DNA of 64,000 bases from Trypanosoma brucei (lineage: Eukaryota), in contig AL929603.2 in NCBI GenBank assembly GCA_000002445.1, positions 160,001-224,000 of the forward strand, given 5' to 3'. The notes below the pieces were generated by a model that was not told where the DNA came from, did not search any database, and saw nothing but the letters and a program-made list of their open reading frames with translations. The first letter of the stretch is position 1. Every line of letters starts with the position of its first letter. Below are positions 639 to 21,844 of this stretch, one piece after another. A program made the position numbers and the translations under genes.

Positions 639-677
639 ATGCTGCTGTCCGGTGATGTGGAAGAGAATCCCGGCCCG
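639..677 (+). other. 2A-like co-translational 'skipping' peptide (MLLSGDVEENPGP) at the N-terminal region of ingi ORF1
   Basis: This is the canonical D(V/I)ExNPGP motif. It is known from T. cruzi L1Tc and T. brucei ingi. The same motif is on the minus strand at 12752-12790 (copy 2) and in the fragment at about 36840. In copy 3 (31449-31487) it is mutated to NPGS. Confidence 0.8.
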
Positions 678-1571
678 TCGTTGCGCGGGATGCAGTGGAA
701 CTGCGCCGGGCTATCTCAAGGAAAGAGATTAGCACTCCACAAAACCCTTGTTGATGAGCGGATCGCCTTTTGTCTGTTGAGCGAGACAAGGATGACGCCT
801 GGAGAGGCGGCTTGCTTTAGCGTTGCTGGTTACCAACATCGCGGAATAGCTCGTAACTGCAAAGGAGGTGGTGTATCAATACTAGTGAGGGAGGACCTAC
901 CAGTCGAGACCGGTATGGCCGTTGTTGGTCGCATTGAACAAGTGCATGCAACAATTCACCTTGCACGTGGAACGGCGCTGACTGTCACGTCGGCATACAT
1001 CCCACCAAAACACACCTTTACGGCAACTGACATAGATACGCTTCTGACAACTGACGGTGCCCAGCTCATCGGTGCAGACGCTAATGCACACGCGTTGGCA
1101 TGGGATCGCGCGAGCCCACCAAATACCAAGGGTGAAACCCTCACACAGTGGTGCATTGACAACCAGTTTCTGGTCTGCAACACTGGTGAGTGCACCAGGT
1201 ACGCGTGCCACCACGGGGAGTCCACCCCTGATGTGACACTGTCAAGGAATTGCACAGTGTACACGTGGACATCGCTGTATTCTCCCGATAGCGATCACCA
1301 TCACATATTTTTCGACGTTATCGTTGGAGACGACACAGATGCACTGAGTTGCCCGCGGCTTCGAAAGCCCATGTACGCATGGCTAAAAGCTAACTGGAGG
1401 AATTTCCGTCTCAAGGTTGACGAGCTCTGCAGGAAAATTGGTAGAGAGAAGAACGTCAACACCCTGGAACAGAAATTGAGCTCCGCCATCCGCATTGGAC
1501 ACCTGCGCTCGCGAAACTCGATGAAGAGATCGCTGGATGCGGACCCTCCCGCCGAAGGGAAAAGTTGGTAG
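639..1571 (+). CDS. ingi ORF1: 2A peptide + apurinic/apyrimidinic-type endonuclease domain
   Basis: 310-aa ORF with the APE-family C-terminal SDH signature (YSPDSDHHHIFFDV) and the GADANAHALAWD segment. It ends at a TAG at 1569-1571. The translation is identical across the three copies. Confidence 0.8.
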   Translation: MLLSGDVEENPGPSLRGMQWNCAGLSQGKRLALHKTLVDERIAFCLLSETRMTPGEAACFSVAGYQHRGIARNCKGGGVSILVREDLPVETGMAVVGRIEQVHATIHLARGTALTVTSAYIPPKHTFTATDIDTLLTTDGAQLIGADANAHALAWDRASPPNTKGETLTQWCIDNQFLVCNTGECTRYACHHGESTPDVTLSRNCTVYTWTSLYSPDSDHHHIFFDVIVGDDTDALSCPRLRKPMYAWLKANWRNFRLKVDELCRKIGREKNVNTLEQKLSSAIRIGHLRSRNSMKRSLDADPPAEGKSW

Positions 1572-4500: not shown

Positions 4501-5353
4501 AAGGGGGCGAGAGAACGAGGACTCAGTGCAAGGAGATGGTAAAGCCCCAGCAGCGCCAGCCTCTCAGGATACACGGAAGCTGCCGTTTCAATGTGACCTG
4601 TGCGAGGCGAGCTTCGGTACACGCTCTTCCCTGTCACTACACAAGAAATTCAAACATAAAAGCATAGTGACTGAGGACGGTGCCGTGGTGGTGGTGCAAT
4701 TCCCTCGTAAGCGTGCCCGTGAGGGAAACGTTGACGTCCCGGGGAAAGGCGAGGTGCAGTGCGGTGTGTGCCAAAAAGTGCTCAGTTGCAGGGACTCCCT
4801 CATCCGACACTGTAAGGCTTTCCACAAAGGTGAGGTAGTCGAGCTTAAATGCAGCAAAAGCACAAAATTGTGTGCCACTGATTCCCCCCATACAAACACA
4901 TCCATGTTGGTGTGCCCGACATGCGGAAGGCAGTGTGCTAGCAAAACTGGCCTCACCCTACATCAAAAGAAGATGCACGGTATGAAGGTAGAGCGCGCTG
5001 TTACCAGCCAACGCGGCGACTGCGAAGAAACGTCGCTGCACTTGATGAGCTGTCCCGGTTTGAAGAAGTTACGTGTCAGGTTTGCGGTAGAAGGTGAGTG
5101 TGTGCAGGATGTATGTTTCTCCAAAAGGCTGGCGCAGTTTCTCATTGCGGTTGAACGGAGCCGGCCGCAGGTGAAGTCCTCACCTAAGGTAACAGTCATA
5201 CAACCCACTCTTCCTTCTGCAACTTCCCCCCTTATTGCCGAGTGTGGAGCTAGCAGGAAAAGCACCGGACGCAGGAATAGTCCAGACACCCTCAGAGACA
5301 GAGGAGGTATGCTGTCAACAAGCAACAGAAACAGAAAGAGGGGGAGAGAATAA
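1565..5353 (+). CDS. ingi ORF2: reverse transcriptase / RNase H / C2H2 zinc-finger protein
   Basis: 1262 aa. Reverse transcriptase motifs are present (PQGTVLGP, GFFADDLTLL as the YXDD-box variant FADD). The RNase H region includes YELWTDGS. There are five C-terminal C2H2 fingers (CTECDATYQC..H..H, HCTLCASKF..H..H, FQCDLCEASF..H..H, CGVCQKV..H..H, CPTCGRQC..H..H). The first codon listed is TTG. The real start is undetermined, and the frame is -1 relative to ORF1. Confidence 0.85.
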   Translation: MVATRKQILDRTTKKRWSTLCSRLAVSDRCSWHIVKKVYAPRPLTTPAVLVDNAAITDYRQAERFSKLYSSRARRHPDSHPPAPIKTIASEFSPITMAELRRSIKLLPSGSAAGPDCLYNEALQHLGRTALNVVLWLFNESLRTGVVPPAWKTGVIIPILKAGKKAEDLDSYRPVTLTSCLCKVMERIIAARLRDTVESQLTPQQSGFRPGCSTLEQLLHVRAALCRPTHQSRTGAVFVDYEKAFDTVDHDKIAREMHRMKVSPHIVKWCVSFLSNRTGRVRFKEKLSRSRTFERGVPQGTVLGPIMFIIVMNSLSQRLAEVPLLQHGFFADDLTLLARHTERDVINHTLQCGLNVVLQWSKEYFMSVNVAKTKCTLFGCIERHPLTLQLEGERIGADRTPKLLGVTFQCLQGMATHAAETRRKMDFRLLQIAAISASTWRPRRQVLRAFYLALVQAHTMYGIEVWYWDASERSRDLLASAQHKASRIIAGIPHGTRKEDSLLEANLLPLKTTTLVRSMKFMLMCESRGGCLRRSAEEVYHSKHPVRVLHSRIMRSYPHLRIEPREHPLETSTLRHSCRPIFHTQIKPVCADDPDDVKREASEKWIERHFARRGKEPPRREHYELWTDGSVSLGEKTGAAALLYRNNTLICAPKTGAGELSCSYRAECVALEIGLQRLLKWLPAYRSTPSRLSIFSDSLSMLTALQTGPLAVTDPILRRLWRLLLQVQRRKVRIRLQFVFGHCGVKRNEVCDEMAKKAADLPQLRDTWIPDIIAYAKRVLRSEEVHENTHRFGITGNHFPTKHKEELTREEETALARFRVGSSRHYGWMLRKINPSVPPQCRWCNPQHAAIGPTIQTQKAPIVATRTLQRTSEPTKCTECDATYQCRSSAVTHMVNKHGFVRADALRRIKYGDATPAVDIPPEPPPVVAIVPLPSSTRVPIRPQVLHCTLCASKFAVPGRLLHHLRTIHGIGSGSCRVKRGRENEDSVQGDGKAPAAPASQDTRKLPFQCDLCEASFGTRSSLSLHKKFKHKSIVTEDGAVVVVQFPRKRAREGNVDVPGKGEVQCGVCQKVLSCRDSLIRHCKAFHKGEVVELKCSKSTKLCATDSPHTNTSMLVCPTCGRQCASKTGLTLHQKKMHGMKVERAVTSQRGDCEETSLHLMSCPGLKKLRVRFAVEGECVQDVCFSKRLAQFLIAVERSRPQVKSSPKVTVIQPTLPSATSPLIAECGASRKSTGRRNSPDTLRDRGGMLSTSNRNRKRGRE

Positions 5354-5625
5354 TAAACGAATAACAAAAATCAAAACAAAAGGATTGCTAATTGACATCT
5401 TTGGGAGAGTCCAGGGTGGGAGGCTTCTCGCCCCATCTGCTGTATTCCGTTCATATGCGGAAATACAACAAAAATTATAGAGGGTGTGTTAGGATGAATG
5501 AAAAAGGGAGACTCTGCCACAGTCGCCAGACCGATAGCATCTCAGGGCTCTACGGTGATGGCTGATGGCCGCGCCAGTGAGGGGAAACTCCCACGAAGGC
5601 ACGAAGAAAATTCTAAAAAAAAAAA

Positions 5626-6308
5626 TTCTCCTTCACAAACTAAAGCATGATGCCAGAGTATTGCCTGTTACCGCATATTTTATAGGAGTTCATGCATGCA
5701 TATATATATATATATATATGTCTGTGTTGTATCTTGGAACGTTGCGCCCATATGGCAAATGGATTGGAAGACTGCTGCTGCATAAATTCATCAACCTTGG
5801 TCGCATCTATCGTACAGGAGATTCCGAAACGTATGTGTGCACGCTGCACTTTGAATCCGCATTGAGGGTGGTAACTTTCCAGTCGCGCAGAGACGTTGCA
5901 CGACAACATTGTGTGAGGAGAGTCACTCATATACAGATCAGTTTTGTCTTGTGTTTTGAAGGTGATGCCGCAAGTGCTTTCGATTTTCCCAGGGTATTAT
6001 TTCCTTTTATTGACATGATAGGGTCATTGCCCGCAACCGCGGAGTGGAAACAGGAAACGATGCAGGATGTCAGCGTGTTGAACCGCCTGAGCGATATTTT
6101 CCTGAACTTCGGTAAAGCACAGCGCCTTCCAAATATCCATGAGGGAACAATCAACTCTCCACACACCATGCAACTTTACGGGTTCCCACCCATTTTCCCA
6201 CTATTTGATACCTTGTTTGTTGTGGATTGCGACACAACCACCGAAGTTGAAAATCAACGAAAAATAAACGGTGGTGATGTTGCAATTCCAAACTGCTGGA
6301 TCACATGA
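5626..6308 (+). pseudogene. possible decayed downstream continuation of the RHS gene interrupted by ingi copy 1
   Basis: Directly after the poly(A), the 12 nt ttctccttcaca (LLLH-type hot-spot sequence) is followed by an open frame of 247 codons. That frame contains a (TA)10 microsatellite (5700-5719) and has no recognisable domain. It sits where the 3' half of an interrupted RHS is expected. Homology is not demonstrable by eye. Confidence 0.25.
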
Positions 6309-7275: not shown

Positions 7276-7786
7276 TTTTTTTTTTTTTAAAAGTTGTCTT
7301 CGTGCCTTCGTGGGAGTTTCCCCTCACTGGCGCGGCCATCAGCCATCACCGTAGAGCCCTGAGATGCTATCGGTCTGGCGACTGTGGCAGAGTCTCCCTT
7401 TTTCATTCATCCTAACACACCCTCTATAATTTTTGTTGTATTTCCGCATATGAACGGAATACAGCAGATGGGGCGAGAAGCCTCCCACCCTGGACTCTCC
7501 CAAAGATGCCAATTGGCAATCCTTTTTTTTTCGGAGGTCCACATCACCGGACAGCAGCATCTTAGTGCGGATGATATACTGCTGATGGCACGCTGGCACG
7601 TGCCCAGTGACAGAAAAATGAAAAACGGTGTCCCAGCAAGACGCTGCTGATCCCTGTGCTGTATGATGCCGTAGCCGGAGCACAGCAGTGTTCCCCATGA
7701 AAGGAACGCTGCTGGCTCTTGGCTTCCCCCGATGATACGGGGTACTGGACCCTGGCACCACGTTGAGGTGGCCGGCATCGCCAGGG
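7276..7786 (-). mobile_element. RIME (ribosomal mobile element, ~511 bp): 5' ~255 bp + 3' ~245 bp of ingi, complete, poly(T) 7276-7288 on + strand
   Basis: The span 7289-7530 is the reverse complement of the ingi 3' terminus seen at 5380-5614. The span 7535-7786 is the reverse complement of the ingi 5' terminus, ending ...cctggcaccacgttgaggtggccggcatcgccaggg. The internal deletion joint falls inside the 2A coding motif (LLSGDV|DLRKK). Confidence 0.85.
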
Positions 7787-7798
7787 TGTATAACAAAA
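7787..7798. repeat. 12-nt target-site duplication tgtataacaaaa (left copy) of ingi copy 2, shared with the adjacent RIME
   Basis: An identical 12-mer lies at 13015-13026 immediately outside the ingi 5' end. On the minus strand it encodes the F-L-L-Y-T hot-spot residues of RHS. Confidence 0.8.
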
Positions 7799-8081
7799 TT
7801 TTTTTTTTTTTTTTAGAATTTTCTTCGTGCCTTCGTGAGAGTTTCTCCCAACTGGCGCGGCCATCAGCCATCACCGTAGAGCCCTGAGATGCTATCGGTC
7901 TGGCGACTGTGGCAGAGTCTCCCTTTTTCATTCATCCTAACACACACACTCTCTATAATTTTTGTTGTAGCTCCGCAGTTGAACGGAATACAGCAGATGG
8001 GGCGAGAAGCCCCCCTCACCCCGGACTCTCCCAAAGATGTCAATTAGCAATCCTTTTGTTTTGATTTTTGTTATTCGTTTA

Positions 8082-11000
8082 TTATTCTCTTCTCCTCTTT
8101 CTGTTTCTGTTGCTTGTTGATTGCATACCCCCTCTGTCTCTAAGGGTGTCTGGACTATTCCTGCGTCCGATGCTTTTCCTGCTAGCTCCACATTCGGCAA
8201 TAAGGGGGGAAGTTGCAGAAGGGAGAGTGGGTTGTATGACTGTTACCTTAGGTGAGGACTTCACCTGCGGCCGGCTCCGTTCAACCGCAATGAGAAACTG
8301 CGCCAGCCTTTTGGAGAAACATACATCCTGCACACACTCACCTTCTACCGCAAACCTGACACGTAACTCCTTCAAACCGGGACAGCTCATCAAGTGCAGC
8401 GACGTTTCTTCGCAGTCGCCGCGTTGGCTGGTAACAGCGCGCTCTACCTTCATACCGTGCATCTTCTTTTGATGTAGGGTGAGGCCAGTTTTGCTAGCAC
8501 ACTGCCTTCCGCATGTCGGGCACACCAACATGGATGTGTTTGTATGCGGGGAATCAGTGGCACACAATTTTGTGCTTTTGCTGCATTTAAGCTCGACTAC
8601 CTCACCTTTGTGGAAAGCCTTACAGTGTCGGATGAGGGAGTCCCTGCAACTGAGCACTTTTTGGCACACACCGCACTGCACCTCGCCCTTCCCCGGGACG
8701 TCAACGTTTCCCTCACGGGCACGCTTACGAGGGAATTGCACCAACACCACGGTACCGTCCTCCGTCACTATGCTTTTATGTTTGAATTTCTTGTGTAGTG
8801 TCAGGGAAGAACGTGTACCGAAGCTCGCCTCGCACAGGTCACATTGAAACGGCAGCTTCCGTGTATCCTGAGAGGCTGGCGCTGCTGGGGCTTTACCATC
8901 TCCTTGCACTGAGTCCTCGTTCTCTCGCCCCCTTTTCACGCGGCAACTGCCGCTGCCTATGCCATGTATTGTTCTAAGGTGGTGTAGTAGTCTGCCTGGC
9001 ACTGCGAATTTGGAGGCACAGATGGTACAATGAAGCACCTGCGGTCTCATCGGGACTCGTGTGCTCGATGGTAGGGGAACGATCGCCACCACTGGAGGGG
9101 GCTCCGGGGGGATATCCACTGCAGGTGTTGCATCGCCGTATTTGATCCTCCGGAGGGCATCAGCTCGCACAAAGCCATGTTTGTTTACCATATGCGTTGC
9201 AGCACTCGAGCGGCATTGGTATGTGGCATCACATTCCGTACATTTGGTCGGTTCGGAGGTTCTTTGAAGAGTGCGTGTCGCAACAGTTGGGGCCGTTTGT
9301 ATTGTTGGCCCTATCTCTGCATGTTGCGGGTTGCACCATCGGCACTGTGGAGGCACACTCGGGTTGATCTTTCGCAACATCCATCCATAGTGCCTTGAAG
9401 ACCCAACCCGAAAGCGTGCCAGTGCCGTTTCTTCTTCCCTCGTCAGTTCTTCCTTATGTTTTGTTGGAAAGTGGTTGCCCGTGATACCAAACCTATGAGT
9501 GTTCTCATGGACTTCTTCCGACCTAAGCACTCGCTTCGCATAAGCAATGATGTCGGGGATCCATGTGTCTCGCAACTGTGGTAAATCTGCGGCCTTTTTG
9601 GCCATGTCATCGCAAACCTCATTCCGTTTCACGCCACAATGGCCAAACACAAATTGCAGTCGGATACGTATCTTCCTTCTCTGAACTTGAAGCAGAAGCC
9701 TCCATAGTCGTCTTAGAATTGGGTCCGTTACGGCTAGGGGGCCTGTCTGCAGTGCTGTTAACATTGACAGCGAGTCAGAGAAGATGGATAACCTGCTCGG
9801 TGTGGTTCTGTATGCCGGAAGCCATTTCAGCAGCCGTTGCAGTCCTATCTCTAATGCTACGCATTCCGCTCTGTAACTGCATGAGAGTTCCCCTGCTCCT
9901 GTCTTAGGTGCGCAAATCAGCGTGTTGTTTCTGTAGAGCAGGGCAGCTGCTCCGGACTTCTCACCGAGGGACACGGATCCATCAGTCCACAATTCGTAGT
10001 GCTCTCGCCGCGGTGGCTCCTTCCCCCTCCGTGCAAAATGCCGTTCAATCCACTTTTCGGAAGCCTCCCTTTTGACATCGTCAGGGTCATCAGCGCACAC
10101 AGGCTTTATCTGCGTGTGAAATATCGGTCGGCAGCTGTGGCGGAGCGTCGATGTCTCTAGTGGGTGCTCGCGTGGCTCAATGCGGAGGTGGGGGTAGGAC
10201 CGCATGATACGGGAATGTAGGGCTCTGACTGGGTGTTTGCTGTGGTATACTTCTTCAGCACTGCGCCGCAAACATCCGCCTCGTGACTCACACATCAGCA
10301 TGAATTTCATGCTGCGCACAAGAGTGGTCGTCTTGAGTGGCAGGAGGTTTGCTTCCAGCAGAGAGTCCTCTTTGCGCGTCCCATGCGGTATGCCGGCTAT
10401 GATGCGACTGGCTTTGTGTTGTGCTGATGCAAGGAGGTCGCGACTTCGTTCCGAAGCGTCCCAGTACCATACCTCAATGCCATACATGGTGTGTGCCTGT
10501 ACGAGTGCTAGATAAAAAGCTCTCAGTACTTGTCGTCTTGGCCCCCATGTAGAAGCTGAGATGGCTGCTATCTGCAGTAGTCGGAAGTCCATCTTGCGTC
10601 TCGTTTCGGCCGCATGTGTTGCCATCCCCTGCAGACACTGGAATGTTACTCCTAGAAGCTTCGGTGTCCTGTCAGCTCCTATTCTTTCACCGTCCAGTTG
10701 TAATGTAAGGGGGTGGCGCTCTATACACCCGAAGAGTGTGCACTTTGTTTTCGCTACGTTGACAGACATGAAGTACTCTTTTGACCACTGTAACACCACG
10801 TTTAGACCGCACTGTAGTGCGTGGTTGATGACATCCCTCTCTGTGTGCCTCGCAAGTAGCGTTAGGTCGTCTGCAAAGAATCCGTGCTGCAGTAACGGCA
10901 CCTCTGCAAGGCGTTGGCTCAACGAGTTCATGACAATAATGAACATGATTGGGCCAAGGACAGTTCCTTGTGGCACTCCTCGCTCAAATGTTCTGCTTCT

Positions 11001-11864
11001 GGAAAGCTTCTCCTTGAATCTCACTCTGCCAGTTCGGTTACTCAGAAATGATACGCACCACTTCACAATGTGGGGTGATACCTTCATTCTGTGCATTTCC
11101 CTCGCAATTTTGTCGTGGTCTACTGTATCAAATGCCTTCTCGTAGTCAACGAATACAGCACCCGTACGATATTGGTGCGTGGGACGGCAGAGGGCAGCGC
11201 GGACGTGCAGGAGTTGTTCGAGCGTTGAGCATCCGGGGCGAAAGCCTGATTGCTGCGGCGTCAGCTGGGACTCAACAGTGTCTCTAAGTCTCGCGGCAAT
11301 TATGCGCTCCATGACTTTGCAGAGACAGCTCGTGAGCGTCACAGGCCTGTAAGAATCGAGGTCCTCCGCCTTTTTTCCGGCCTTCAGGATGGGGATGATA
11401 ACACCAGTCTTCCATGCAGGCGGCACGACTCCCGTTCGTAGGCTCTCATTGAATAGCCTCAGAACAACATTCAGCGCTGTTCTACAGAGATGTTGCAGTG
11501 CCTCGTTGTATAAGCAATCAGGTCCGGCTGCGGATCCACTCGGTAGCAGTTTGATCGATCTCCGTAGTTCAGCCATCGTGATGGGACTGAACTCACTCGC
11601 TATCGTCTTTATTGGTGCCGGTGGGTGTGAGTCGGGGTGCCTTCTTGCGCGGGACGAGTACAGTTTACTGAACCTCTCAGCTTGACAGTAGTCCGTGATG
11701 GCCGCGTTATCAACAAGTACAGCCGGTGTGGTTAGTGGTCGTGGCGCATATACCTTCTTGACAATGTGCCAACTGCAGCGGTCTGACACCGCAAGTCTGG
11801 AGCATAGCGTGCTCCATCTCTTCTTTGTGGTACGGTCCAGGATCTGCTTACGCGTGGCTACCAA
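8082..11864 (-). CDS. ingi ORF2 (RT/RNase H/zinc finger), copy 2
   Basis: 1260 aa, more than 98% identical to copy 1 ORF2 by eye. It has the same FADD, WTDGS and C2H2 motifs. Confidence 0.85.
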   Translation of the reverse strand: MVATRKQILDRTTKKRWSTLCSRLAVSDRCSWHIVKKVYAPRPLTTPAVLVDNAAITDYCQAERFSKLYSSRARRHPDSHPPAPIKTIASEFSPITMAELRRSIKLLPSGSAAGPDCLYNEALQHLCRTALNVVLRLFNESLRTGVVPPAWKTGVIIPILKAGKKAEDLDSYRPVTLTSCLCKVMERIIAARLRDTVESQLTPQQSGFRPGCSTLEQLLHVRAALCRPTHQYRTGAVFVDYEKAFDTVDHDKIAREMHRMKVSPHIVKWCVSFLSNRTGRVRFKEKLSRSRTFERGVPQGTVLGPIMFIIVMNSLSQRLAEVPLLQHGFFADDLTLLARHTERDVINHALQCGLNVVLQWSKEYFMSVNVAKTKCTLFGCIERHPLTLQLDGERIGADRTPKLLGVTFQCLQGMATHAAETRRKMDFRLLQIAAISASTWGPRRQVLRAFYLALVQAHTMYGIEVWYWDASERSRDLLASAQHKASRIIAGIPHGTRKEDSLLEANLLPLKTTTLVRSMKFMLMCESRGGCLRRSAEEVYHSKHPVRALHSRIMRSYPHLRIEPREHPLETSTLRHSCRPIFHTQIKPVCADDPDDVKREASEKWIERHFARRGKEPPRREHYELWTDGSVSLGEKSGAAALLYRNNTLICAPKTGAGELSCSYRAECVALEIGLQRLLKWLPAYRTTPSRLSIFSDSLSMLTALQTGPLAVTDPILRRLWRLLLQVQRRKIRIRLQFVFGHCGVKRNEVCDDMAKKAADLPQLRDTWIPDIIAYAKRVLRSEEVHENTHRFGITGNHFPTKHKEELTREEETALARFRVGSSRHYGWMLRKINPSVPPQCRWCNPQHAEIGPTIQTAPTVATRTLQRTSEPTKCTECDATYQCRSSAATHMVNKHGFVRADALRRIKYGDATPAVDIPPEPPPVVAIVPLPSSTRVPMRPQVLHCTICASKFAVPGRLLHHLRTIHGIGSGSCRVKRGRENEDSVQGDGKAPAAPASQDTRKLPFQCDLCEASFGTRSSLTLHKKFKHKSIVTEDGTVVLVQFPRKRAREGNVDVPGKGEVQCGVCQKVLSCRDSLIRHCKAFHKGEVVELKCSKSTKLCATDSPHTNTSMLVCPTCGRQCASKTGLTLHQKKMHGMKVERAVTSQRGDCEETSLHLMSCPGLKELRVRFAVEGECVQDVCFSKRLAQFLIAVERSRPQVKSSPKVTVIQPTLPSATSPLIAECGASRKSIGRRNSPDTLRDRGGMQSTSNRNRKRRRE

Positions 11865-13006
11865 CTTTTCCCTTCGGCGGGAGGGTCCGCATCCAGCGAT
11901 CTCTTCATCGAGTTTCGCGAGCGCAGGTGTCCAATGCGGATGGCGGAGCTCAATTTCTGTTCCAGGGTGTTGACGTTCTTCTCTCTACCAATTTTCCTGC
12001 AGAGCTCGTCAACCTTGAGACGGAAATTCCTCCAGTTAGCTTTTAGCCATGCGTACATGGGCTTTCGAAGCCGCGGGCAACTCAGTGCATCTGTGTCGTC
12101 TCCAACGATAACGTCGAAAAATATGTGATGGTGATCGCTATCGGGAGAATACAGCGATGTCCACGTGTACACTGTGCAATTCCTTGACAGTGTCACATCA
12201 GGGGTGGACTCCCCGTGGTGGCACGCGTACCTGGTGCACTCACCAGTGTTGCAGACCAGAAACTGGTTGTCAATGCACCACTGTGTGAGGGTTTCACCCT
12301 TGGTATTTGGTGGGCTCGCGCGATCCCATGCCAACGCGTGTGCGTTAGCGTCTGCACCGATGAGCTGGGCACCGTCAGTCGTCAGAAGCGTATCTAGGTC
12401 AGTTGCCGTGAAGGTGTGTTTTGGTGGGATGTATGCCGACGTGACAGTCAGCGCCGTTCCACGTGCAAGGTGAATTGTTGCATGCACTTGTTCAATGCGA
12501 CCAATAACGGCCATACCGGTCTCGACTGGTAGGTCCTCCCTCACTAGTATTGATACACCACCTCCTTTGCAGTTACGAGCTATTCCGTGATGTTGGTAGC
12601 CAGCAACGCTAAAGCAAGCCGCCTCTCCAGGCGTCATCCTTGTCTCGCTCAACAGACAAAAGGCGATCCGCTCATCAACAAGGGTTTTGTGGAGTGCTAA
12701 TCTCTTTCCTTGAGATAGCCCGGCGCAGTTCCACTGCATCCCGCGCAACGACGGGCCGGGATTCTCTTCCACATCACCGGACAGCAGCATCTTAGTGCGG
12801 ATGATACTGCTGATGGCACGCTGGCACGTGCCCAGGGACCGACAAATGAAAAACGGTGTCCCAGCAAGACGCTGCTGATCCCTGTGCTGTATGATGCCGT
12901 AGCCGGAGCACAGCAGTGTTCCCCATGAAAGGAACGCTGCTGGCTCTTGGCTTCCCCCGATGATACGGGGTACTGGACCCTGGCACCACGTTGAGGTGGC
13001 CGGCAT
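11858..13006 (-). CDS. ingi ORF1 (2A + endonuclease), copy 2, open from the element's first ATG and fused in frame to upstream RHS codons
   Basis: The frame is continuous from MPATSTWCQGPVPRIIGG... through IIRTKMLLSGDVEENPGP into the endonuclease domain and ends at TAG. It is part of the single ORF 11858-14089. Confidence 0.8.
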   Translation of the reverse strand: MPATSTWCQGPVPRIIGGSQEPAAFLSWGTLLCSGYGIIQHRDQQRLAGTPFFICRSLGTCQRAISSIIRTKMLLSGDVEENPGPSLRGMQWNCAGLSQGKRLALHKTLVDERIAFCLLSETRMTPGEAACFSVAGYQHHGIARNCKGGGVSILVREDLPVETGMAVIGRIEQVHATIHLARGTALTVTSAYIPPKHTFTATDLDTLLTTDGAQLIGADANAHALAWDRASPPNTKGETLTQWCIDNQFLVCNTGECTRYACHHGESTPDVTLSRNCTVYTWTSLYSPDSDHHHIFFDVIVGDDTDALSCPRLRKPMYAWLKANWRNFRLKVDELCRKIGREKNVNTLEQKLSSAIRIGHLRSRNSMKRSLDADPPAEGKSW

Positions 13007-13014
13007 CGCCAGGG

Positions 13015-13026
13015 TGTATAACAAAA
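13015..13026. repeat. 12-nt target-site duplication tgtataacaaaa (right copy) of ingi copy 2
   Basis: It is identical to 7787-7798. It lies between the ingi 5' end and the RHS codons ...GSFLLYT. Confidence 0.8.
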
Positions 13027-14089
13027 AGGATCCCACGGAAAACGATTTACCAATACCAGGTGTACCAACAAGAACATTGGATGCCCGGTCGATATTCAGC
13101 TTGCCCATAAGCCACTGGTTAAGCCGTTCCTCAACCTTATGCCACACCCTCAGTGCTTCCCTACGGATATAAACGTCATCGTTAAAAACGTGATCCACTC
13201 CCTTCTTGTGATTAATATCATAATCCACTATGTCCGACAGGAAAAACGTGCACGGCCAACCCATTTGAGATGTAAGCACAGCAATCTCCAAGTTACCGTG
13301 ACGGGGAAGTGGTTCCTTCATAGTTTCCGGAGTGTGACTGACATCAACCTCCTCCTTCGTCCACATGTGCGGTGGCCTTCCATCGAACACTTTCATGCCA
13401 AGTCGCTCTGTATTATAACCCGACATCACATAACTCCATTTTGCATTATATATGGAATCATAAACATCTGGGAGTTCGGCACCACCGGCTGTTTGGGCAG
13501 CTCTCTCCCATACTTCCTTGGCGACCTCCAGTGCTCCATCCAACCTTCCCCTCGCCACGGGACCAACAAATTCCCTTATTTCCACTGTCCCCCTCCTTTC
13601 CCACTGCCGGAGATAGTAAATTTCCTTTTCGTCAAGGTAGTCTACCTTCTCAGACAGATCAATAGCTGTCTTCACTGTTTTAAACTCATTAGTGCCTTGT
13701 ATATCCTCAAGAATCTCGGCATCAACAATATATCTTCTGGGATTCTTAACAAAAATAGGCATCCTAACATTTTCTGCCTCAGCCACCGCAAAAGTCCCGC
13801 CAACGAACTCCTGAATAAAGTCGTTCACTGTCATTTTACGCAAACCCTCATACCGTTGCAGCAGCGCATCTTCCAGCAGCACATCCCTCACCTTACTATT
13901 CATTGTCCAATTGGGCCCCCCTTCATTTCCCTGGCGGATTTGTGGAGGCTGAGCAGCAGCAGCAGGAGGAGGAGGAGGCGGCGGTACATTTTCATCCCGT
14001 GGCCTCCTCATGGGCCCTTCAAAATTATCTGCCACTTGTTGATTTTCATTATTTCCTTGTGGAGCTGCGGGACTATTTGCTCTTGACAT
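13015..14089 (-). pseudogene. RHS protein gene, N-terminal ~358 codons (Pro/Ala-rich N-terminus, P-loop GTPGIGKS), interrupted at the hot spot by ingi copy 2 and reading in frame into it
   Basis: Sequence MSRANSPAAP...PPPPPPPAAAAQPP...VSHTPETMKEPLPRHGNLEIAVLTSQ...LVGTPGIGKSFSVGSFLLYTL, followed immediately by the ingi 5' end. The minus strand carries a GGA/GGC/GCA triplet-repeat-encoded Pro/Ala tract at about 13930-13990. Confidence 0.75.
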
Positions 14090-17000
14090 AACTCTCTTAA
14101 TATTATTAACTTAACTTCCTTTCCTTTTCTTTTTTCTCTGAAATTATAAATAACTGAAGTAAAATAATAGATAAGAAAACAATAGCGGGTGAACAGTGTA
14201 ACATAATATCAAATGTGATAGAGCAAGATAATGTTTATTCACTATAGTTTGTATAATATGATATCATAATGTATTTGGTATTGAGAGGAACAATTCCAAA
14301 ATATGGCAGCTGTAAATAAATATTTCCCTTGCTTCATTATCATGTGCTAAATGTAATATATTCCTGTATCATTCTTTTTAAACCATATATAATATGGAAA
14401 CAAAAAATATTACTGCCTCATATACCTGCGTAAACACTTCGTATATATAATCAATATTTAAAGAGAGTCAAATTCTATTAATTAAAATCAAGTAAAACAA
14501 TAAACAAAAAATTTTATGGATATTAATGAAACGAAGAAAAAGAGTATCGGCACAACACATACATATACACACACAACTGCACAACTGTAAAAATGCTTCT
14601 TTGTATATCCTCTCCATTTTTACAATTCATAATATTCAGTTTCATTGATAAACTCATTGAAAATATAAATCACCTATCCCCTCCCCCGTGTATTCACTTA
14701 CTTCCGAAGGAGAATATTAAATAATGTCTGTAGGACAGGTAAAAAAAACTGATAGTCTTTTTGCATCAGATAACCAGAGAGTATTTCCGTTTACTTTCAT
14801 AATAAACAAAAACATTCTTTCACCATCAGTAGAAATAAAATTGAATTACTTGCCTACTCACTGTTCACAACTGTCAACAACTAATTCAGCGACACACATT
14901 CATATGAATCTTATGTGTCATCATTGTTTCATTCATTCACACATCTTCCATGATGGTGATGATACAACATATGAAAAATAATTGGAATAAAATTAACACA
15001 ATTAATTGAGGAAACCATGAAAGATTATTATAACATATCTTTTATTTTCCCTCCTTTCATTTACACAAATTAAATATGTAATGAGACAATTCCTTTTCAG
15101 TACGTGTCCACACTTATTGTATCATCATTGTAAGTTTCCTATTGCTCACATACACAAAGTTATTGGAATAACAAAAAAATAAAACAACACATCTAAACAA
15201 CTTGAAATAATATAACAAATAAAGGTAATAAAGAGAATGAGAGTGAGCTGACAGATAATAAAATGAAACACGTCTCGTACTTTCCTTCTAAATATTCAAT
15301 AGTTGGCGGATTACAAATAAAAACAATTACACATTATAGAAAGGAAGGGATATAATTACATTATACACCTGCATGTGGATATGTAACAGTAAGTCATAGT
15401 AGAAATGAATTGCCTAAACACAATAGTTATGGAAGATAAAATAATTCAAAATATCAATAATATTATTCTATCAACATTCCCTTCCTTCTCCATTAAGTTT
15501 CCAAATGGTTTCAAATAATAATTCACATAATTCCATACATATGTTACGATGGGCATTGCATGCAGTACAATTTAAAGGAAGTGTAACTCATATAACATTT
15601 TCAAAAAAAAAAGGTATTAAATGACTGTTTGCTACCATCAATTACATTTCCAATGCCTAATTACACTTTTATATGCATGAAAGAAGTTACTGATGATAAC
15701 TTTGACATGCTCGAGAATTCATAACACAAAGCGACAGCTGCATGCAATTAAAAATAAAACATAAAAATAACATCCGAATTCATTTACTGACAGATGAGTG
15801 CAATTCATTCACCCAAACTTCATAGCTGCAAACATAAACTCGTTGTTGCCGATAGGAAATAATCCCGCATAAATATTGAGTATCTGAAAATGATAGCAAC
15901 GGGTTTCCATTTTTGAAATATATACATAAACTACGTGAGGTATATGAAGCCATATTGGTAAAGTGTTACTACGCATGTTGCAATTTAATATCAGAAGTGT
16001 CTGCCTTATTTTATTTCTTGTGTTACTGTAACTCATGAGTATTATTCATTATTCTTTACAATACAACTGTAAGTCATTTTGCATTTTTACATATTTTCTT
16101 ATTCTCTCATACTGGAAGTATTCCACATATAAGATTCCTCAATATCGTTCACAAAATAAAAATAATTTTATTTACTTCTGCATTCAGTTTCTTGTGCAGC
16201 AGTGTGTACACTAATCATCCATAAAGTTTTTAATTTGCCAAATACATCATTACGAAACTATTTTCCACAAATAAACAAACAAACAAATCATTGGGACAAT
16301 ATCTTTGAGATATTTCCTTCACTATATTTGCAGTTCAGCAGTAATTAAAAGAAACATTTCTGTATAATTCAGCACATGGTGGAAATGCAAAGAAATGTGA
16401 TGGTACTTATAATCCATAAGTTCCCAATTTTCCTCATACGGTCTCCTTTCATGCCTTTACATCCATATATAATTCACAGAGAATTACTGCAATTTCTTTC
16501 ATATGCTTTCAGGATTCCATATGTCACAATACAAATAATATATATATATATATCCTCCTACATAATTTGGACAGAATATTGCTTAACATATAAATTATCA
16601 CAAACCTACGATATTACACTCTTCCTAAGAATAATAGAATCAAATTATTTCTATTTTGCATCATTACATGAAGCTTCGGAAAAGGAAAAAAAAAAAAGAA
16701 TAAAACAAAAGGTAATGTAAAGAACACAGTTTTTTAATACAGATTATAACTTGTTTGTGAATTTCAGATGCAAACACAAAATGTTCAAACAGGAAAACAG
16801 TAAAGGATAGTACTGGTGATGTAAGCACAAATTAACCAAAAATAGAAACATAAATAAAATTGAAACTTATAAAAACACAAATATATATGATACAAATATT
16901 TACCACATATTATAATTCGCCACCCTCACACTTGAATTACAAAGAGGACATAACACGCATATGTGGTAAAGCTAATACAACTCGAATATACGTATGCGCC

Positions 17001-20000
17001 ATCTCCTTAACATAATCATTCTAATATTTAGTATGTCTGTGTGTGTGTGTGTAGTGATGATGAAATGTAATCGGCAGTCCCTTGACTCGGAATGCGGTAT
17101 TAACATGTCTCAGATGTTAAGCACTGTTGCACTACAAAGGATGTCATTCGCCTTTTTTTTTCCTTTTTGCGCAAACAAAAAATAAAAAGAAGAATACAGG
17201 GGTTTTAGCGGATAACTAGCTTTTTGAATCGTAGGAATATATTATGAAGCTTGTACCGTAGTCTACTCAGTGTTTTTTTATTTTTTATTTTTTGACTTCT
17301 TCTGATTCTATCTATTTTTATCCATGTTTATAAATGATACTTTTTGTGAAAGTTATAACAAGAAACCAATCCGTATTTCCTGTCAATGTCCTCGTCAGTG
17401 CTAAATTTTCGCCATGGTGCCGCGGCAAAACAACTTTCTTATTTCATTGAGCAGTTATGCTTGCAGAAGAAAACAGGATGAAAATAATCAAGACCTCACC
17501 AACAGGGTCCAGACATCCTTCAAAAAAGAACGAACAAAGAAGTTAACCACACAACCCTTCTTACAAATGAGCGTCTGTCAATGTGCAAGAAAAAACAATG
17601 GCTCTTCGACTGCATGCAACACTAGAAACGATATCAGCGGCTTCAATCCCACAGTTAAAGTCACTTGACGAAACACTCCGCACATGAGACCTTTGCAAAG
17701 CAATGTATTTGCTATTTAAAAAGAAAACGCATTCCTTCACGTGCCGTTTCAACAAACTGCTAGCCTAGAACTAAGAGTATCAACACACACACAGGTGATA
17801 TCTACGCGTCGAATATTTGCTGCCCAGCTGACTCCAAACTCACAAAGAGGAAACCAGACGTAACCACTTACAGCCCAGCCGCTAGTGTCATTTAAGTACA
17901 TACAAATACACAACAGCAATCATTGTCACCCCACTAACTTTAGGTGCCGTTAAAAGCACATTTAACAAACGTGATGCCCGACTCCAATTGTGAAAGTCAC
18001 TTGTCACGCACCCGCCCCGCCCCCATCCCCACCAATTCTACAGGATGGTGGAAACGAAGCGGCAAAGGAGGAGCGGTGCGGCGCTGTTAAAATAGAGCAG
18101 CTGCGCATCAGTCGCGTTGATTTTGTGGAATGCGGAGAAACCACCAGTTGAGTTTCGAGAGAGGGATGCCTCCCACGGAGCCGTGACGGCAGAATATGAT
18201 GTAGACGTCGCGATTCTTTTTTTTTTTTTGTTTTGCTGCAACCCCCCGAAATGCGTTGAAACGCAAAGAACTACCGCCACCCCCAAAGCAAAAACGTTGG
18301 GGAGAAAAAGCGGAACAATGTGTGGGTTGTGGCGCTGAAACCGCAATTACCAACTGGCGGGGTGGATGGACCGCGACATGTGAGCGGGCAAGGGGAGGCA
18401 TCGCTGTTTGTGGAATGTGGGGAAATGTAAGAAAAGAGACCACTAAATATGATAACGATGTCAGAGCAGCGAATATGAGAAGCGTCCAATTCCGTTTAGA
18501 AACCCTGTCCGGAATTTCTGTCCGTAAAACAACAACTGGCAGCGCCAACGAATTAGGGACAGAGGGCTGCGGGGTGTGAGCAAAGAAGGAAACAACAATG
18601 GGCCACAACCACACCGAATCAGAAAGTCCACATAAAAGTAACCAAATACTCGCAGCTCAAACGCTCAAATGTTGGATACGCAGAAGGTGACACGACGGAA
18701 GGAATATTATCCAGCGCTTAGAAGCATGTCACCACCGCAACGACTCCTCAGAAACTGGACAGCTTCAAGTGTGGAGTGGCGGCTTACATATGAACGCAGT
18801 GAATGTCAAAGAAGGGGTGAAAGGCACAGCGGGAGGAATGGCAAAGCAAAAAAGGCAGGGGGGCGGTGCCAAGACTCCCGAGCAGCCATCCGCTAAAACC
18901 TACGGCATATGACATGTGTGGTATGGCCATCGCAGCGCAGGAGGAACTGTTGCAACGAATCAGACGTGACTGTTATGGGCCCGTCACTGCCTTCAGAGAC
19001 TTTTTCAAACTCAAGGAAAGAGCGGAATGCGACAGAGTGATGCTGACGTGTGCAGAAGTCTGAAGGCATTATATCAGCGAGGTCTGTGGTGACTAAAAGC
19101 CTGAGTTGGATGCATGGTTAGAAGAGTGGTGGATCCTGCGAATAGTTGAAAGTAGGGTGCCTGTACTTTATTTCTCATATACTCGTATGCTCCGTATACA
19201 AAATATAAATGAGAAATGGATCTCACAAACACGCCAGAGAAGTGGATGTGTTTCTTTGCAATGTCCAGACAATTCGCACTAAGACTCTTAAAGCTACTGG
19301 ACCGAAGGAACCTCACGACCGTGTGCAGCTGGCAAACGTGCGAAAATGGAGAGCTGGCCGGCATCTCACCCTCTACTCAGCAGTTGCTCCCAACTGGAAT
19401 ATCGGGGATTATGGATGGTGTGTAAAGCTCACCGTTTCGTGGATTCTTCTGAATAGCAATGGAATCTGAAGGTTAACTCAAAGAATTAAAATGTTGAACA
19501 GACCTGGTGACCCACGTGGTCTTTTTTGTGTAAAAAATGCCGGACTGCCTTACTGCATCCCTTCGCGTGCATGCAAACTGAGCACAACGCAATGTCTCCT
19601 TTATTATTTGAAGCATGAAAGCTCATGGATCATAGCCATGTGACAGAACGCCTTGATTACGTTAGACTGATAGGACCGCTGTGTATTTTTGTCGTTTATG
19701 TTGGGATGTGCATTTGATAGTAGCATCTGTTAATGTACAATCATTCTAGTGGATTCGGCACATTACAGTGATTTCTGTTGAGAGTTCCTTTCCCCCCTCA
19801 CTCCGAGTAGATGTGGGGTAACTGGTTTCCTTTCTGACGCTAACATGGTTTGCCAGCTCTGTTTGGCAAAGTTACGGTATCATCACGCACAGTTTCGCAA
19901 ATTGTCCGTAAAGCTGTTTTGAATCCATGTTGCGGTTGTCACGAATCAGAAAAATTATAACGGAGACGGGTCTGCAATAAGGCATTGTGAGTAAGCGGCA

Positions 20001-21844
20001 ATACTGCGTGTCAAGTAACGTCACATCATGATGATTACAGTGCTGCTTCACAACTTCAGCATAGGGGAATGGCGGAATCGTTTCAAATGCGGAACAAATA
20101 ATGAGAGTCCAAATCTCCCTCTTAAATTCCCGTGACCACATAAACTGTATGCAGGTGAAACATTTATCAAGGAAACTGTATTTACGAGACTTAATCTAAG
20201 GAGAGATTAGGAATGCAGATACTTCATGCCTTCATTGAACAGTCGTACATCAGACCTGTCAAATCCATTAAGTGACTGAGGAGTTAACCTATTTTAAGGT
20301 GTATGGACATGGAGACATGGTTAGAGCAACCAACAACCAGTATTCAGTATAGTTGGCTTATGTGAAACCAAAGCATATGCATCCGTGTATGTTCAACCTG
20401 ACAGCTTCGCTTACCCTTTTGTTAAGCTATAAGACACTCTTCCAGGTGTATGCAACAAAATACAGTTATGCGCGTGATCTTGCGAGTGAGGATGATAGTC
20501 TACAGGAAGCATGCGAAACAGGAAAAATATATTGAGCTGCTCTGAATCCATTTCATGCAGAATGTAAGAGCACAACCCGGCTGATATTTTCGTATTAACC
20601 AACATACTAAAGAATGATTTAAGAAGCAGGAAAAAGTTGATCCAAACTGCACTTGGCCTGGAGTTGTTTCCAATGCTCCTAGATAATATTGTGTATGCGT
20701 ATGGAGGTTCATTACTTTTTGAGGGAGTATGAAAAAGGATGATGGACAGAAACTGTTCGGAAGATGACAATATTTACCATTCTTTTTATTAGGTCGATAT
20801 CGTTTTTGTGATGCCTTAACGGTTTAGTATATATGAGTGCTTTACACTCGTTTTATTTGAACACAAATCACTGCATACACAAACACGAGTGCCAAGCTTC
20901 TTATAGAGATATTTCAATACCTGGAAAAAGGGACCGGGACGCAAAGTTTGGGAATGGAATTTCCCCGCCCGTAACGGTGATTATCTAAGACGCTCAATCA
21001 GCACATTTCCGCCTGTCCACAGTTAATCGGAAACCGTAGTGCCCATATGTCTCCCTAATTACTGTTGTCCCTTCAGTTTTCACAGTAGATGTTTCAATTG
21101 GTTTCTGTGGCCGAGGTAAATAAAGCGTATGTGTCATATCCTGGAGGTGTTTCCATGTGTCTTCGCTTTCCGTTTTGTCACTGCGTTTGGGCTCACGCAA
21201 TGACATTAATTGAAATTTCAGGCCACTACCATAGATGGGTGGCTCGTGGAGAGAGTGAGGATTGGGATTATTCTAACAGCTTTGTGGTTGTGTGTGCAGT
21301 GCTTTTGGAAAATATTGCAGCCAATGAAAGGGAAGGCAAGTGTCACCTTACTTTCCATGCTGCGACATCAATGCATCACGATTATATGCTAGTTGCCCTG
21401 AGAGGGAAGGCCGTGAAGGCGAAGGTTAGCTTCCGGTTTAAGGAAGTGTAGAGACTTCCTGATACTACTGTCAGAAACTACTGTTACTGCGTGCTTCAGG
21501 CACTGGGTCAGTAATTCATAAATACAACAACGAGAATAAAATTAATCCCTTGTGACTGCTAAGCGTGTAAGCAACTGAGAATAATAAACAGTATATTTTT
21601 GCCACACTTTATTGATTTCTTTATATATACAAAAAACCTCATTACATTTATCATTTCTTTTGTGCCCAAAGACTGCTGAATGAAGGTTAGGATTACTGAC
21701 CATAACACATTTTGGCATGCACCTCAATTACTTCCTTATAACACTTCCCCCCCTCGTTTGATTCATCGCTTAGCTCTATTATTAAAAAAGAAAAAGCATT
21801 TCCTCAACACTCAGCACCTCAAGGAATCGGAAACGGGAACTACA

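What the first reader, a model, noticed from the sequence alone, without database searches (positions are those of the whole stretch)
11858..14089. In-frame RHS-ingi chimeric ORF with a 2A 'skipping' peptide positioned to release the endonuclease
The 743-codon ORF starts at the RHS ATG (14089) and runs through the hot spot without a stop. It continues into ingi ORF1 as ...GIGKSFSVGSFLLYTL|AMPATSTW...IIRTKMLLSGDVEENPGP|SLRGMQW... Because the 2A motif lies about 70 codons into the element, the RHS-derived N-terminal polypeptide would be separated co-translationally from the AP-endonuclease domain. This fits the view that site-specific, in-frame insertion into RHS combined with a 2A signal lets the element borrow host-gene translation. 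Here the frame is intact. In copy 3 the same region is broken by a 2-bp insertion and NPGP has become NPGS.
Basis: partly seen in the sequence, partly recalled or inferred. Interest (0 to 1): 0.6.

Follow-up and report, generated by a model that had tools for sequence, protein, structure and literature searches.

The report
RHS pseudogene fused in-frame to ingi
This is an ordinary Trypanosoma brucei RHS pseudogene cut at its known hot spot by an ingi retrotransposon, and the continuous reading frame and the 2A "skipping" peptide are real but are built-in, already described features rather than evidence of a new expression trick.

Summary
Window 11858-14089(-) is one 743-codon ORF. It comprises 359 codons of an RHS 5' half, the ingi 5' end at 13014, an 84-codon ingi leader from the element's own ATG (13006-13004), GDVEENPG|P (12778-12752), an AP-endonuclease domain, and a stop at 11860-11858. 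The 2A junction is 86 codons into the element, not about 70.

The window is T. b. brucei TREU927 chromosome 1. The frame match follows from site-specific insertion: five RHS junctions sampled all split the same codon. The ingi ATG sits two codons after the junction. The same leader and 2A occur in copies outside RHS, which have upstream stops, and in T. grayi and T. theileri. The 2A is therefore intrinsic to the element, as already published, and is not positioned for RHS.

This copy cannot make reverse transcriptase from the chimeric ORF. All three ingi copies here share a 49-nt deletion that shifts the RT into another frame. The RHS 3' half is missing. A 98% identical inverted ingi lies 2.2 kb away. 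The element's first 77 nt are reported to act as a self-cleaving ribozyme that cuts at the junction.

"Borrowing RHS translation" is possible but untested, and I judge it unlikely to be the main route.

The parts
13015..14089 (-). RHS 5' half: codons 1-358 plus the first base of codon 359. Contains DUF7578, RHS_N and the Walker-A P-loop GTPGIGKS (13066-13043).
   Evidence: Pfam hits. 75% identity to intact RHS P0033 over aa 1-361. Same N-terminus as P0020 and P0023.
13015..13026 (-). 5' copy of the 12-bp target-site duplication TTTTGTTATACA, which marks the RHS hot spot.
   Evidence: An exact repeat lies at 7787-7798 after the ingi poly(A).
7799..13014 (-). Full-length ingi, 5216 bp including a 16-nt poly(A). 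This is copy 2 in the window.
   Evidence: Self-BLAST. Pr77 5' end. APE, RT, RNase H and C2H2 domains. Poly(A) followed by the TSD.
12936..13014 (-). Pr77 hallmark, the first ~79 nt of ingi. It is reported to be an internal promoter and an HDV-like ribozyme cutting 5' of +1. Helices P1 (CCCUGGC/GCCAGGG), P3 and P4 are present.
   Evidence: Exact match to the hallmark. P1, P3 and P4 appear in the centroid fold with RHS context. Function is taken from PMC1874656, PMC3185411 and PMC4035085. There is no Rfam hit.
12755..13006 (-). Ingi's own initiation codon (13006-13004, element nt 9-11) and the 84-aa leader ending ...SSIIRTKMLLSGDVEENPG.
   Evidence: Annotated proteins starting MPATSTW... in T. 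b. gambiense and T. b. equiperdum, T. grayi and T. theileri. The ATG is present in 10 of 10 sampled 5' ends.
12752..12811 (-). 20-aa 2A-like peptide SSIIRTKMLLSGDVEENPG|P. The skip site lies between G445 (12757-12755) and P446 (12754-12752).
   Evidence: Motif search and translation. Matches -GD(V/I)ExNPGP-. Ingi 2A is reported active (PMC3708506).
12122..12739 (-). AP-endonuclease domain (aa 451-656 of the chimeric ORF).
   Evidence: Pfam Exo_endo_phos and Exo_endo_phos_2.
11936..11937 (-). Junction of a 49-nt deletion between the direct repeats CCATCCGCATTG and CCACCACATTG. It moves the RT part into the -1 frame.
   Evidence: Alignment A1 against four ingi copies from T. b. gambiense and T. 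b. equiperdum. All three window copies share it.
11858..11860 (-). TAG stop of the chimeric ORF. It is reached 25 out-of-frame codons after the deletion.
8082..11984 (-). Open RT / RNase H / zinc-finger frame of the same ingi. It is -1 relative to the chimeric ORF and overlaps it over 11984-11858.
   Evidence: ORF list and Pfam. Frame scan.
7276..7786 (-). RIME inserted in tandem directly after the ingi's 3' TSD. Its 5' half ends inside the 2A motif (...SGDVD). No TSD follows it and no RHS 3' half follows.

Best explanation
This locus is an RHS pseudogene on T. b. brucei TREU927 chromosome 1. Its 5' half was interrupted at the canonical retrotransposon hot spot by a full-length ingi, and a RIME now sits in tandem behind it.

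Why the frames match. Hot-spot insertions always land after the first base of the 10th codon past the P-loop GKS serine. The ingi coding frame is open from element nt 1, with its own ATG at nt 9-11 in that same phase. Any intact RHS 5' half therefore reads straight into the element.

What the 2A is. It is an intrinsic ingi feature that lies 84 codons after the element's own ATG. It separates whatever has been translated upstream from the endonuclease. Normally that is the 9-kDa leader encoded by the Pr77 promoter/ribozyme region. On a chimeric mRNA it would be a 50-kDa RHS-N/leader fusion.

How the element is normally expressed (inferred from published work on L1Tc and ingi). A unit-length RNA is made by the Pr77 internal promoter and/or by HDV-like ribozyme cleavage 5' of +1. 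Translation then starts at the element's own AUG.

What this copy can make. A 49-nt deletion ends the frame after the endonuclease, so at most an RHS-N/leader fragment and a 33-kDa endonuclease-only protein could come from the chimeric ORF. The in-frame fusion is best read as a by-product of site-specific insertion, not as an expression device.
For: - Organism and locus: exact protein matches to TREU927 chromosome 1 genes for the RNA pol III subunit, phosphate permease and LRRP.
- Anatomy of the ORF.
- Same split codon at five RHS junctions: window 13014 and 31224, L001 (T. b. gambiense RIME), L002 (T. b. equiperdum ingi, which has a later 1-nt insertion) and protein P0043.
- Own ATG at element nt 9-11 in 10 of 10 full-length 5' ends. 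Non-RHS copies have stops 3-49 codons upstream in that frame, yet keep the leader and 2A.
- The leader-2A-APE arrangement is conserved in T. grayi P0007 and T. theileri P0010, with the middle of the leader poorly conserved.
- The 2A is at the N-terminus of the long ORF in all Ingi-clade elements and is reported active for ingi (PMC3708506, PMC5814959).
- The 49-nt deletion and frameshift.
- Pr77 promoter and ribozyme: PMC1874656, PMC3185411, PMC4035085. Helices P1, P3 and P4 are present here.
- No protein carrying both RHS_N and APE appears among 150 top representatives or 63 profile hits.
Against: - Nothing here shows which RNAs or proteins are actually made.
- Pr77-derived transcripts lack the spliced leader and are poorly translated (PMC1874656). 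A capped, trans-spliced RHS::ingi mRNA could therefore in principle be the better template.
- RHS genes are highly expressed (PMC6393297).
- The ingi frame is open to its very first nucleotide.
- Some Ingi-clade relatives lack the leader Met and are annotated with ORFs that start in upstream host sequence (P0057, P0045, P0036). That is what a read-in strategy would look like.
- A(-1) of the hot spot can pair with U38 and lengthen ribozyme helix P1. For L1Tc, a comparable extension by G-1 was reported to lower cleavage (PMC3185411).
- Ribozyme activity of ingi is cited only as unpublished data.
Confidence: 0.7

Rival explanations
1. In-frame insertion at the RHS hot spot is an adaptation. Ribosomes load on the capped, trans-spliced RHS mRNA and start at the RHS ATG. 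They read through the hot spot, and the 2A releases the RHS-derived polypeptide so that a free ingi endonuclease (and, in intact copies, endonuclease-RT) is made from host-driven translation.
For: - The frame is continuous from 14089 to 11858.
- The same phase is seen at every RHS junction sampled.
- A pyrimidine tract and AG dinucleotides typical of a trans-splice acceptor lie 20-100 nt upstream of the ATG (this is an inference).
- The ingi frame has no stop between element nt 1 and its ATG.
- Pr77 transcripts are unspliced and poorly translated (PMC1874656).
- RHS genes are highly expressed (PMC6393297).
- Relatives without a leader Met have ORFs beginning in host sequence.
Against: - The phase match is a single one-in-three event that every hot-spot insertion and every RHS duplication then inherits. 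Counting junctions therefore cannot show selection.
- The element has its own ATG two codons after the junction, and the same 2A spacing outside RHS.
- This copy loses the RT frame and lacks the RHS 3' half.
- The reported ribozyme would cut the chimeric RNA at the junction (PMC3185411, PMC4035085).
- Ingi and RHS-pseudogene RNAs are major siRNA sources under AGO1 control (PMC3447711).
- No paper I could read proposes this.
Confidence: 0.12
2. The locus is expressed only as a source of double-stranded RNA. Ingi copy 1 (+) and copy 2 (-) form a 5.2-kb, 98% identical inverted repeat 2.2 kb apart. Read-through transcription would give hairpin RNA that is diced, so no chimeric protein accumulates.
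For: - The inverted arrangement and identity.
- Ingi/RHS reads are 52% of small RNAs in procyclic T. brucei, and inverted repeats and convergent units are siRNA sources (PMC3447711).
- Ingi transcripts rise in ago1-null cells (bioRxiv 10.64898/2026.01.20.700697).
Against: - No small-RNA or transcript data were mapped to this locus here.
- RNAi lowers ingi RNA but does not eliminate it.
- The same preprint saw no significant rise of RHS or RIME transcripts in ago1 nulls.
Confidence: 0.15
3. The open chimeric frame is an assembly artefact among near-identical ingi copies. For example, a leader without the TA insertion may have been wrongly assigned to this junction.
For: Five element 5' ends within 37 kb differ only by small indels and SNPs. 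The TSDs show that copies have recombined.
Against: - The junction and the unique RHS sequence are contiguous with a leader haplotype (no TA, CCTTTCATGGGG) that no other copy in the window carries in that combination.
- This is finished reference chromosome sequence.
Confidence: 0.03

Closest known systems
RHS pseudogenes carrying RIME/ingi at the retrotransposon hot spot (Bringaud et al. 2002, Eukaryot Cell 1:137; summarised in PMC7563717 and PMC6393297)
   Same: Same gene family, the same hot spot just downstream of the P-loop, the same orientation, a 12-bp TSD, and tandem retroelements between RHS halves. Location is in a subtelomeric-type RHS/ingi/LRRP region of chromosome 1.
   Different: Here the RHS 3' half is absent. 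The papers I could read describe the insertion as causing nonsense or frameshift mutations, whereas at the DNA level the RHS frame continues into the ingi ORF. I could not read Bringaud 2002 to see whether that was noted there.
2A-like recoding peptide of Ingi-clade non-LTR retrotransposons (Heras et al. 2006; Odon et al. 2013, PMC3708506)
   Same: The same motif (GDVEENPGP), the same place immediately upstream of the AP-endonuclease, and within roughly 40-80 aa of the N-terminus of the single long ORF. Ingi and L1Tc 2As were reported active in GFP-2A-GUS assays.
   Different: The published function is control of the upstream:downstream product ratio, or separation of an N-terminal peptide. 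Release from a host-gene fusion is not proposed in the papers I could read.
Pr77 / L1TcRz dual promoter and HDV-like ribozyme of L1Tc, and the R2 ribozyme that frees R2 RNA from 28S co-transcripts (PMC3185411, PMC3383444, PMC4035085)
   Same: The first 77-79 nt are nearly identical to the hallmark. P1, P3 and P4 can form. The cleavage site would coincide with the RHS|ingi junction. Like R2, the element is site-specific and co-oriented with a transcribed host gene.
   Different: The ribozyme separates at the RNA level and the 2A at the protein level, so the two would be redundant for the chimeric transcript. Ingi ribozyme activity is only cited as unpublished, and it was not detectable with Rfam models.
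Viral 2A polyproteins (FMDV and other picornaviruses)
   Same: Co-translational separation at NPG|P within one ORF.
   Different: The upstream part here would be host-derived and probably dispensable, not a viral protein domain.

Membership tests
ingi (Ingi/L1Tc clade non-LTR retrotransposon) | Pr77 hallmark at the exact 5' end | tested here: met
   40-nt exact match starting at 13014, shared with three other 5' ends in the window.
ingi (Ingi/L1Tc clade non-LTR retrotransposon) | About 5.2 kb, with both ends shared with RIME, a poly(A) tail and a 12-bp target-site duplication | tested here: met
   5216 bp. The RIME at 7276-7786 matches the first ~261 nt and last ~262 nt. A16 tail and TTTTGTTATACA on both sides.
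ingi (Ingi/L1Tc clade non-LTR retrotransposon) | Domain order APE - RT - RNase H - C2H2 zinc fingers | tested here: met
   Pfam.
ingi (Ingi/L1Tc clade non-LTR retrotransposon) | A single uninterrupted ORF of 1,657 aa in potentially functional copies (PMC3447711) | tested here: not met
   A 49-nt deletion splits the coding region into a 382-aa part (from the ingi ATG) and a 1260-aa part in the -1 frame. It is an ingi, but not an autonomous-type copy.
RHS (retrotransposon hot spot) gene family | RHS_N domain and Walker-A P-loop, followed by the hot spot | tested here: met
   PF20445 E=3e-68. GTPGIGKS at aa 342-349, with the insertion in codon 359.
RHS (retrotransposon hot spot) gene family | P-loop domain body and subfamily-specific C-terminal half downstream of the hot spot | tested here: not met
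   tblastn with six intact RHS proteins finds no C-terminal match anywhere in the window. The RIME 3' flank has no TSD. It is therefore a pseudogene fragment.
2A / 2A-like ribosome-skipping peptide | C-terminal motif -D(V/I)ExNPGP- in the coding frame | tested here: met
   GDVEENPGP at aa 438-446.
2A / 2A-like ribosome-skipping peptide | An upstream context that supports skipping (measured recoding activity) | not testable with these tools
   Papers report ingi 2A as active (PMC3708506). The exact sequence tested was not available to me for comparison with SSIIRTKMLLSGDVEENPGP.
HDV-like self-cleaving ribozyme (L1TcRz type) | Nested helices P1, P3 and P4, with the cleavage site at the 5' end of P1 | tested here: met
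   CCCUGGC/GCCAGGG, CCAC/GUGG and CCCCG/CGGGG all appear in the centroid fold. The energy is no better than shuffles (z = 0.03).
HDV-like self-cleaving ribozyme (L1TcRz type) | P1.1/P2 pseudoknots and catalytic activity | tested here: inconclusive
   P2 can be drawn by eye with one C·A mismatch. No Rfam family matches. Activity is only cited as unpublished (PMC3185411).

The most novel reading that the evidence does not exclude
The phase of the RHS hot spot has been kept by selection. Under this reading, abundant, capped, trans-spliced RHS mRNAs serve as translation launch pads for ingi, whose own Pr77 transcripts are uncapped and poorly translated. The 2A then works as a universal 'N-terminal eraser', making the endonuclease-RT independent of whatever host sequence is read in. 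The A(-1)-U38 extension of ribozyme helix P1 at the hot spot would damp RNA cleavage, so that some chimeric mRNA survives.
Probability: 0.1. Interest if true: 0.6.

Novelty: already known. Interest (0 to 1): 0.25.

Why it matters
If the ordinary reading is right, the finding only re-describes two textbook features of African trypanosome genomes: the RHS hot spot and the ingi 2A peptide.

Its residual value is a clean, testable point. Hot-spot insertions place the ingi start codon in phase with RHS, so RHS::ingi mRNAs are natural 2A reporters. They could show whether trypanosome retrotransposons are ever translated from host-initiated ribosomes. They could also show how an RNA-level separator (the ribozyme) and a protein-level separator (the 2A) divide the work.

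Tried and rejected
- **Rfam.** A gathering scan of the whole window and a permissive scan of 12850-13100 gave no ribozyme family hit. The only matches were chance miRNA-like ones.
- **Exact look-ups.** Looking up the 743-aa product and the RT product found nothing on record, as expected for unannotated pseudogenes.
- **Papers not held.** Bringaud 2002 (PMC118050), Heras 2006 (PMC11136212) and Bringaud 2009 (PMC2756862) could not be read. I therefore cannot say whether the in-frame relation was noted before.
- **P0019.** This T. b. gambiense RHS pseudogene first looked like a junction in a different phase (...LLLY|PWRCRPPQ). The DNA (L001) shows the same junction and phase as here. The annotated CDS is 1396 nt long and does not translate to the protein, so the shift is an annotation device.
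- **P0025 / L002.** This is out of phase only because of a 1-nt insertion between the P-loop and the hot spot, judged against intact paralogues.
- **P0089 / L007.** This looked like a hot-spot junction (MLHT|LVM), but no P-loop lies upstream, so I did not count it.
- **Orthologous locus.** Attempts to find it in T. b. gambiense (L004, L007, L008) returned unrelated ingi sites.
- **-1 frameshift signal.** I searched the 127-nt overlap of the two ingi frames. The only XXXYYYZ heptamer (GGGAAAA, 11872) is in the wrong frame.
- **Annotated chimeras.** Neither the full-library phmmer search with the chimeric protein nor a profile search with Ingi-clade leaders returned a protein combining RHS_N with the endonuclease.


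Full report
**What is there**

The window is Trypanosoma brucei brucei TREU927 chromosome 1. Its RNA polymerase III subunit, a phosphate permease and the 1449-aa LRRP are exact matches to TREU927 proteins on a 1,064,672-bp record.

The ORF at 11858-14089(-) is real. It has 743 codons, starts at an ATG and has no internal stop. Pfam places DUF7578 (aa 83-144), RHS_N (aa 210-338) and only the first 22 positions of the RHS P-loop domain (aa 339-360) in its first half. Exo_endo_phos (aa 451-656) lies in its second half.

The N-terminus MSRANSPAAPQGNN is the normal RHS start (P0020, P0023, P0033). The closest intact RHS, P0033, is 75% identical over aa 1-361. It reads ...GTPGIGKSFSVGSLLLY|KLLHYEASQ... 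where the window reads ...GTPGIGKSFSVGSFLLYT|LAMPATSTW....

**The junction**

- The ingi 5' end (Pr77 hallmark CCCTGGCGATGCC...) starts at 13014.
- It is preceded by TTTTGTTATACA (13026-13015). The same 12 bp follow the element's A16 tail at 7798-7787.
- This is therefore a complete 5216-bp ingi with a 12-bp target-site duplication.
- A 511-bp RIME (7786-7276) follows immediately in tandem.
- Codon 359 (ACC) is split: A comes from RHS and CC from ingi.
- The element's own ATG is Met362 (13006-13004, element nt 9-11).
- GDVEENPG|P is aa 438-446 (12778-12752).
- The skip site is 86 codons into the element and 84 codons after the ingi Met, not about 70.
- Read-in translation would give a 50-kDa RHS-N/leader product (aa 1-445) and a 33-kDa downstream product (aa 446-743).

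**Why the frames match**

I compared every element 5' end I could obtain. Five RHS hot-spot junctions split the same codon, which is the 10th after the GKS serine, after its first base:

- window 13014
- window 31224 (a decayed RHS: RISKSLATGSLLLHT|LAMP)
- L001 11040 (a T. b. gambiense RIME)
- L002 10771 (a T. b. equiperdum ingi)
- protein P0043

L002 is now out of phase with its P-loop, but only because of a 1-nt insertion just upstream. An apparent counter-example, P0019, is an annotation artefact, because its DNA has the same junction.

The phase is thus a fixed consequence of site-specific insertion. It is one event with a prior of one in three, and every hot-spot insertion and every RHS duplication inherits it.

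**Is the 2A "positioned" for RHS?**

No. All 10 full-length 5' ends sampled carry the ATG at element nt 9-11. Copies outside RHS (L004, L005, L006, L008, window 37090) have stops 3-49 codons upstream in that frame. L004, L005 and L006 nevertheless keep the leader open through NPGP.

Annotated proteins from T. b. gambiense and T. b. equiperdum, T. grayi (P0007) and T. theileri (P0010) start at the same MPA(T/V)... and reach the 2A at the same distance. The Pr77-encoded N-terminus and the 2A are conserved, while the 40 residues between them are not.

Published work already places an active 2A at the N-terminus of the single long ORF of ingi, L1Tc and other Ingi-clade elements (PMC3708506, PMC3894237, PMC5814959). 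Those papers discuss it as a regulator of product ratios, not as a way to escape host fusions.

**What this copy can make**

The chimeric ORF stops at 11860-11858. All three ingi copies in the window share an identical 49-nt deletion between the short direct repeats CCATCCGCATTG and CCACCACATTG. The comparison is with four copies from T. b. gambiense and T. b. equiperdum, in which the endonuclease frame runs on as ...SSAIRIATKVSVPRGCRATPPHWTPALAKLDEE.... The RT / RNase H / zinc-finger frame (11984-8082) is therefore -1 to the chimeric ORF. A published functional ingi has one ORF of 1,657 aa (PMC3447711).

Only copy 2 has ATG, 2A and endonuclease in one frame:

- Copy 1 is 5'-truncated by 18 nt and has a TAG in the leader.
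- Copy 3, the RIME and an inverted 5' fragment carry a 2-bp TA insertion.
- Copy 3 reads NPGS.

No RHS C-terminal half exists anywhere in the window.

**Competing processes**

- The first 77 nt of L1Tc/ingi elements are reported to be an internal Pol II promoter giving unspliced, poorly translated RNA (PMC1874656).
- They are also reported to be an HDV-like ribozyme that cuts co-transcripts 5' of +1. Activity for ingi/RIME is cited as unpublished (PMC3185411, PMC4035085, PMC3383444).
- The helices P1, P3 and P4 are present here, and they form in the centroid structure of the RHS-ingi junction RNA. The fold is no more stable than shuffles, and Rfam has no matching model.
- Cleavage would fall exactly at the RHS|ingi boundary. 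It would remove the RHS start codon from the ingi RNA.
- Copy 1 (+) and copy 2 (-) form a 5.2-kb, 98% identical inverted repeat 2.2 kb apart. Ingi/RHS sequences are the main siRNA source in T. brucei (PMC3447711).

- The ingi frame is open to nt 1.
- A pyrimidine tract with AG sites lies just upstream of the RHS ATG.
- RHS genes are highly expressed (PMC6393297).
- Pr77 RNA is poorly translated.
- The hot-spot A(-1) can pair with U38 and extend P1. For L1Tc, a comparable extension by G-1 reduced cleavage (PMC3185411).
- Some relatives lack the leader Met and are annotated with ORFs that begin in host-like sequence: Strigomonas P0057, P0045 and P0036.

None of this shows that chimeric translation happens. 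No annotated protein in two large searches combines RHS_N with the endonuclease.

**Verdict**

The mechanism offered is possible, but the evidence neither requires nor favours it. The components are already known: an RHS pseudogene with ingi at the hot spot, and the ingi 2A. I rate the novelty as already known and the interest as low to moderate.

Noticed in passing
window 11936/11937 (copy 2), about 1493 (copy 1) and about 32304 (copy 3); RT ORFs 8082-11864(-), 1565-5353(+), 32376-36158(+): All three ingi copies share the same 49-nt deletion, which splits the endonuclease and RT frames. Even so, each keeps an open 1260-1262-aa RT ORF, and pairwise dN/dS among them is 0.17-0.25 (30-44 synonymous versus 18-24 non-synonymous differences). 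Either local gene conversion spread the deletion, or a two-ORF ingi lineage is still replicating. No canonical -1 slippery site lies in the overlap.
   Followed up: partly
window 5626-5637 and 31212-31223: The 12-bp TSD TTCTCCTTCACA lies 3' of ingi copy 1 and 5' of ingi copy 3. These two same-orientation copies, 25.6 kb apart, are therefore recombinant halves of one insertion (unequal crossover or segmental duplication).
   Followed up: partly
window 36434-37090 (-): The poly(A) of ingi copy 3 abuts an inverted 657-nt ingi 5' fragment with an intact NPGP motif. The fragment is inserted in non-RHS sequence and lies inside a 327-codon ORF (36349-37332) that begins 80 codons upstream of the element.
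   Followed up: no
window 433-5625 (+) versus 7802-13014 (-): Two ingi copies form a 5.2-kb, 98% identical inverted repeat separated by 2.2 kb. This is a likely hairpin dsRNA/siRNA source if transcribed through.
   Followed up: no
window 2-432 (+): A third RHS 5' fragment (P-loop GSAGIGKS, 34-38% identical to intact RHS proteins, 49% to the RHS half of the chimeric ORF) ends near 340. About 95 nt of unassigned sequence separate it from the 5'-truncated ingi copy 1, which starts at element nt 19. ARAGORN finds no tRNA there.
   Followed up: partly
window 7276-7786 (-): The RIME's 5' half ends inside the 2A motif (...LLSGDVD|LRKKK), so RIME carries the leader but not NPGP. This RIME has no TSD on its 3' side (flank GTGAATGTACAA).
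   Followed up: partly
proteins P0017 (T. theileri) and P0203 (T. grayi): These annotated proteins join a GP63 (Peptidase_M8) fragment in-frame to an ingi-type leader (...SLAMPATSTW...) in two other trypanosome species. In-frame read-in from a host gene is therefore not unique to RHS.
   Followed up: no
window 14090-21600: A roughly 7.5-kb AT-rich stretch (30-34% GC over much of it) without long ORFs separates the minus-strand RHS::ingi from the plus-strand LRRP gene (21680-26029). It looks like a divergent strand-switch region.
   Followed up: no
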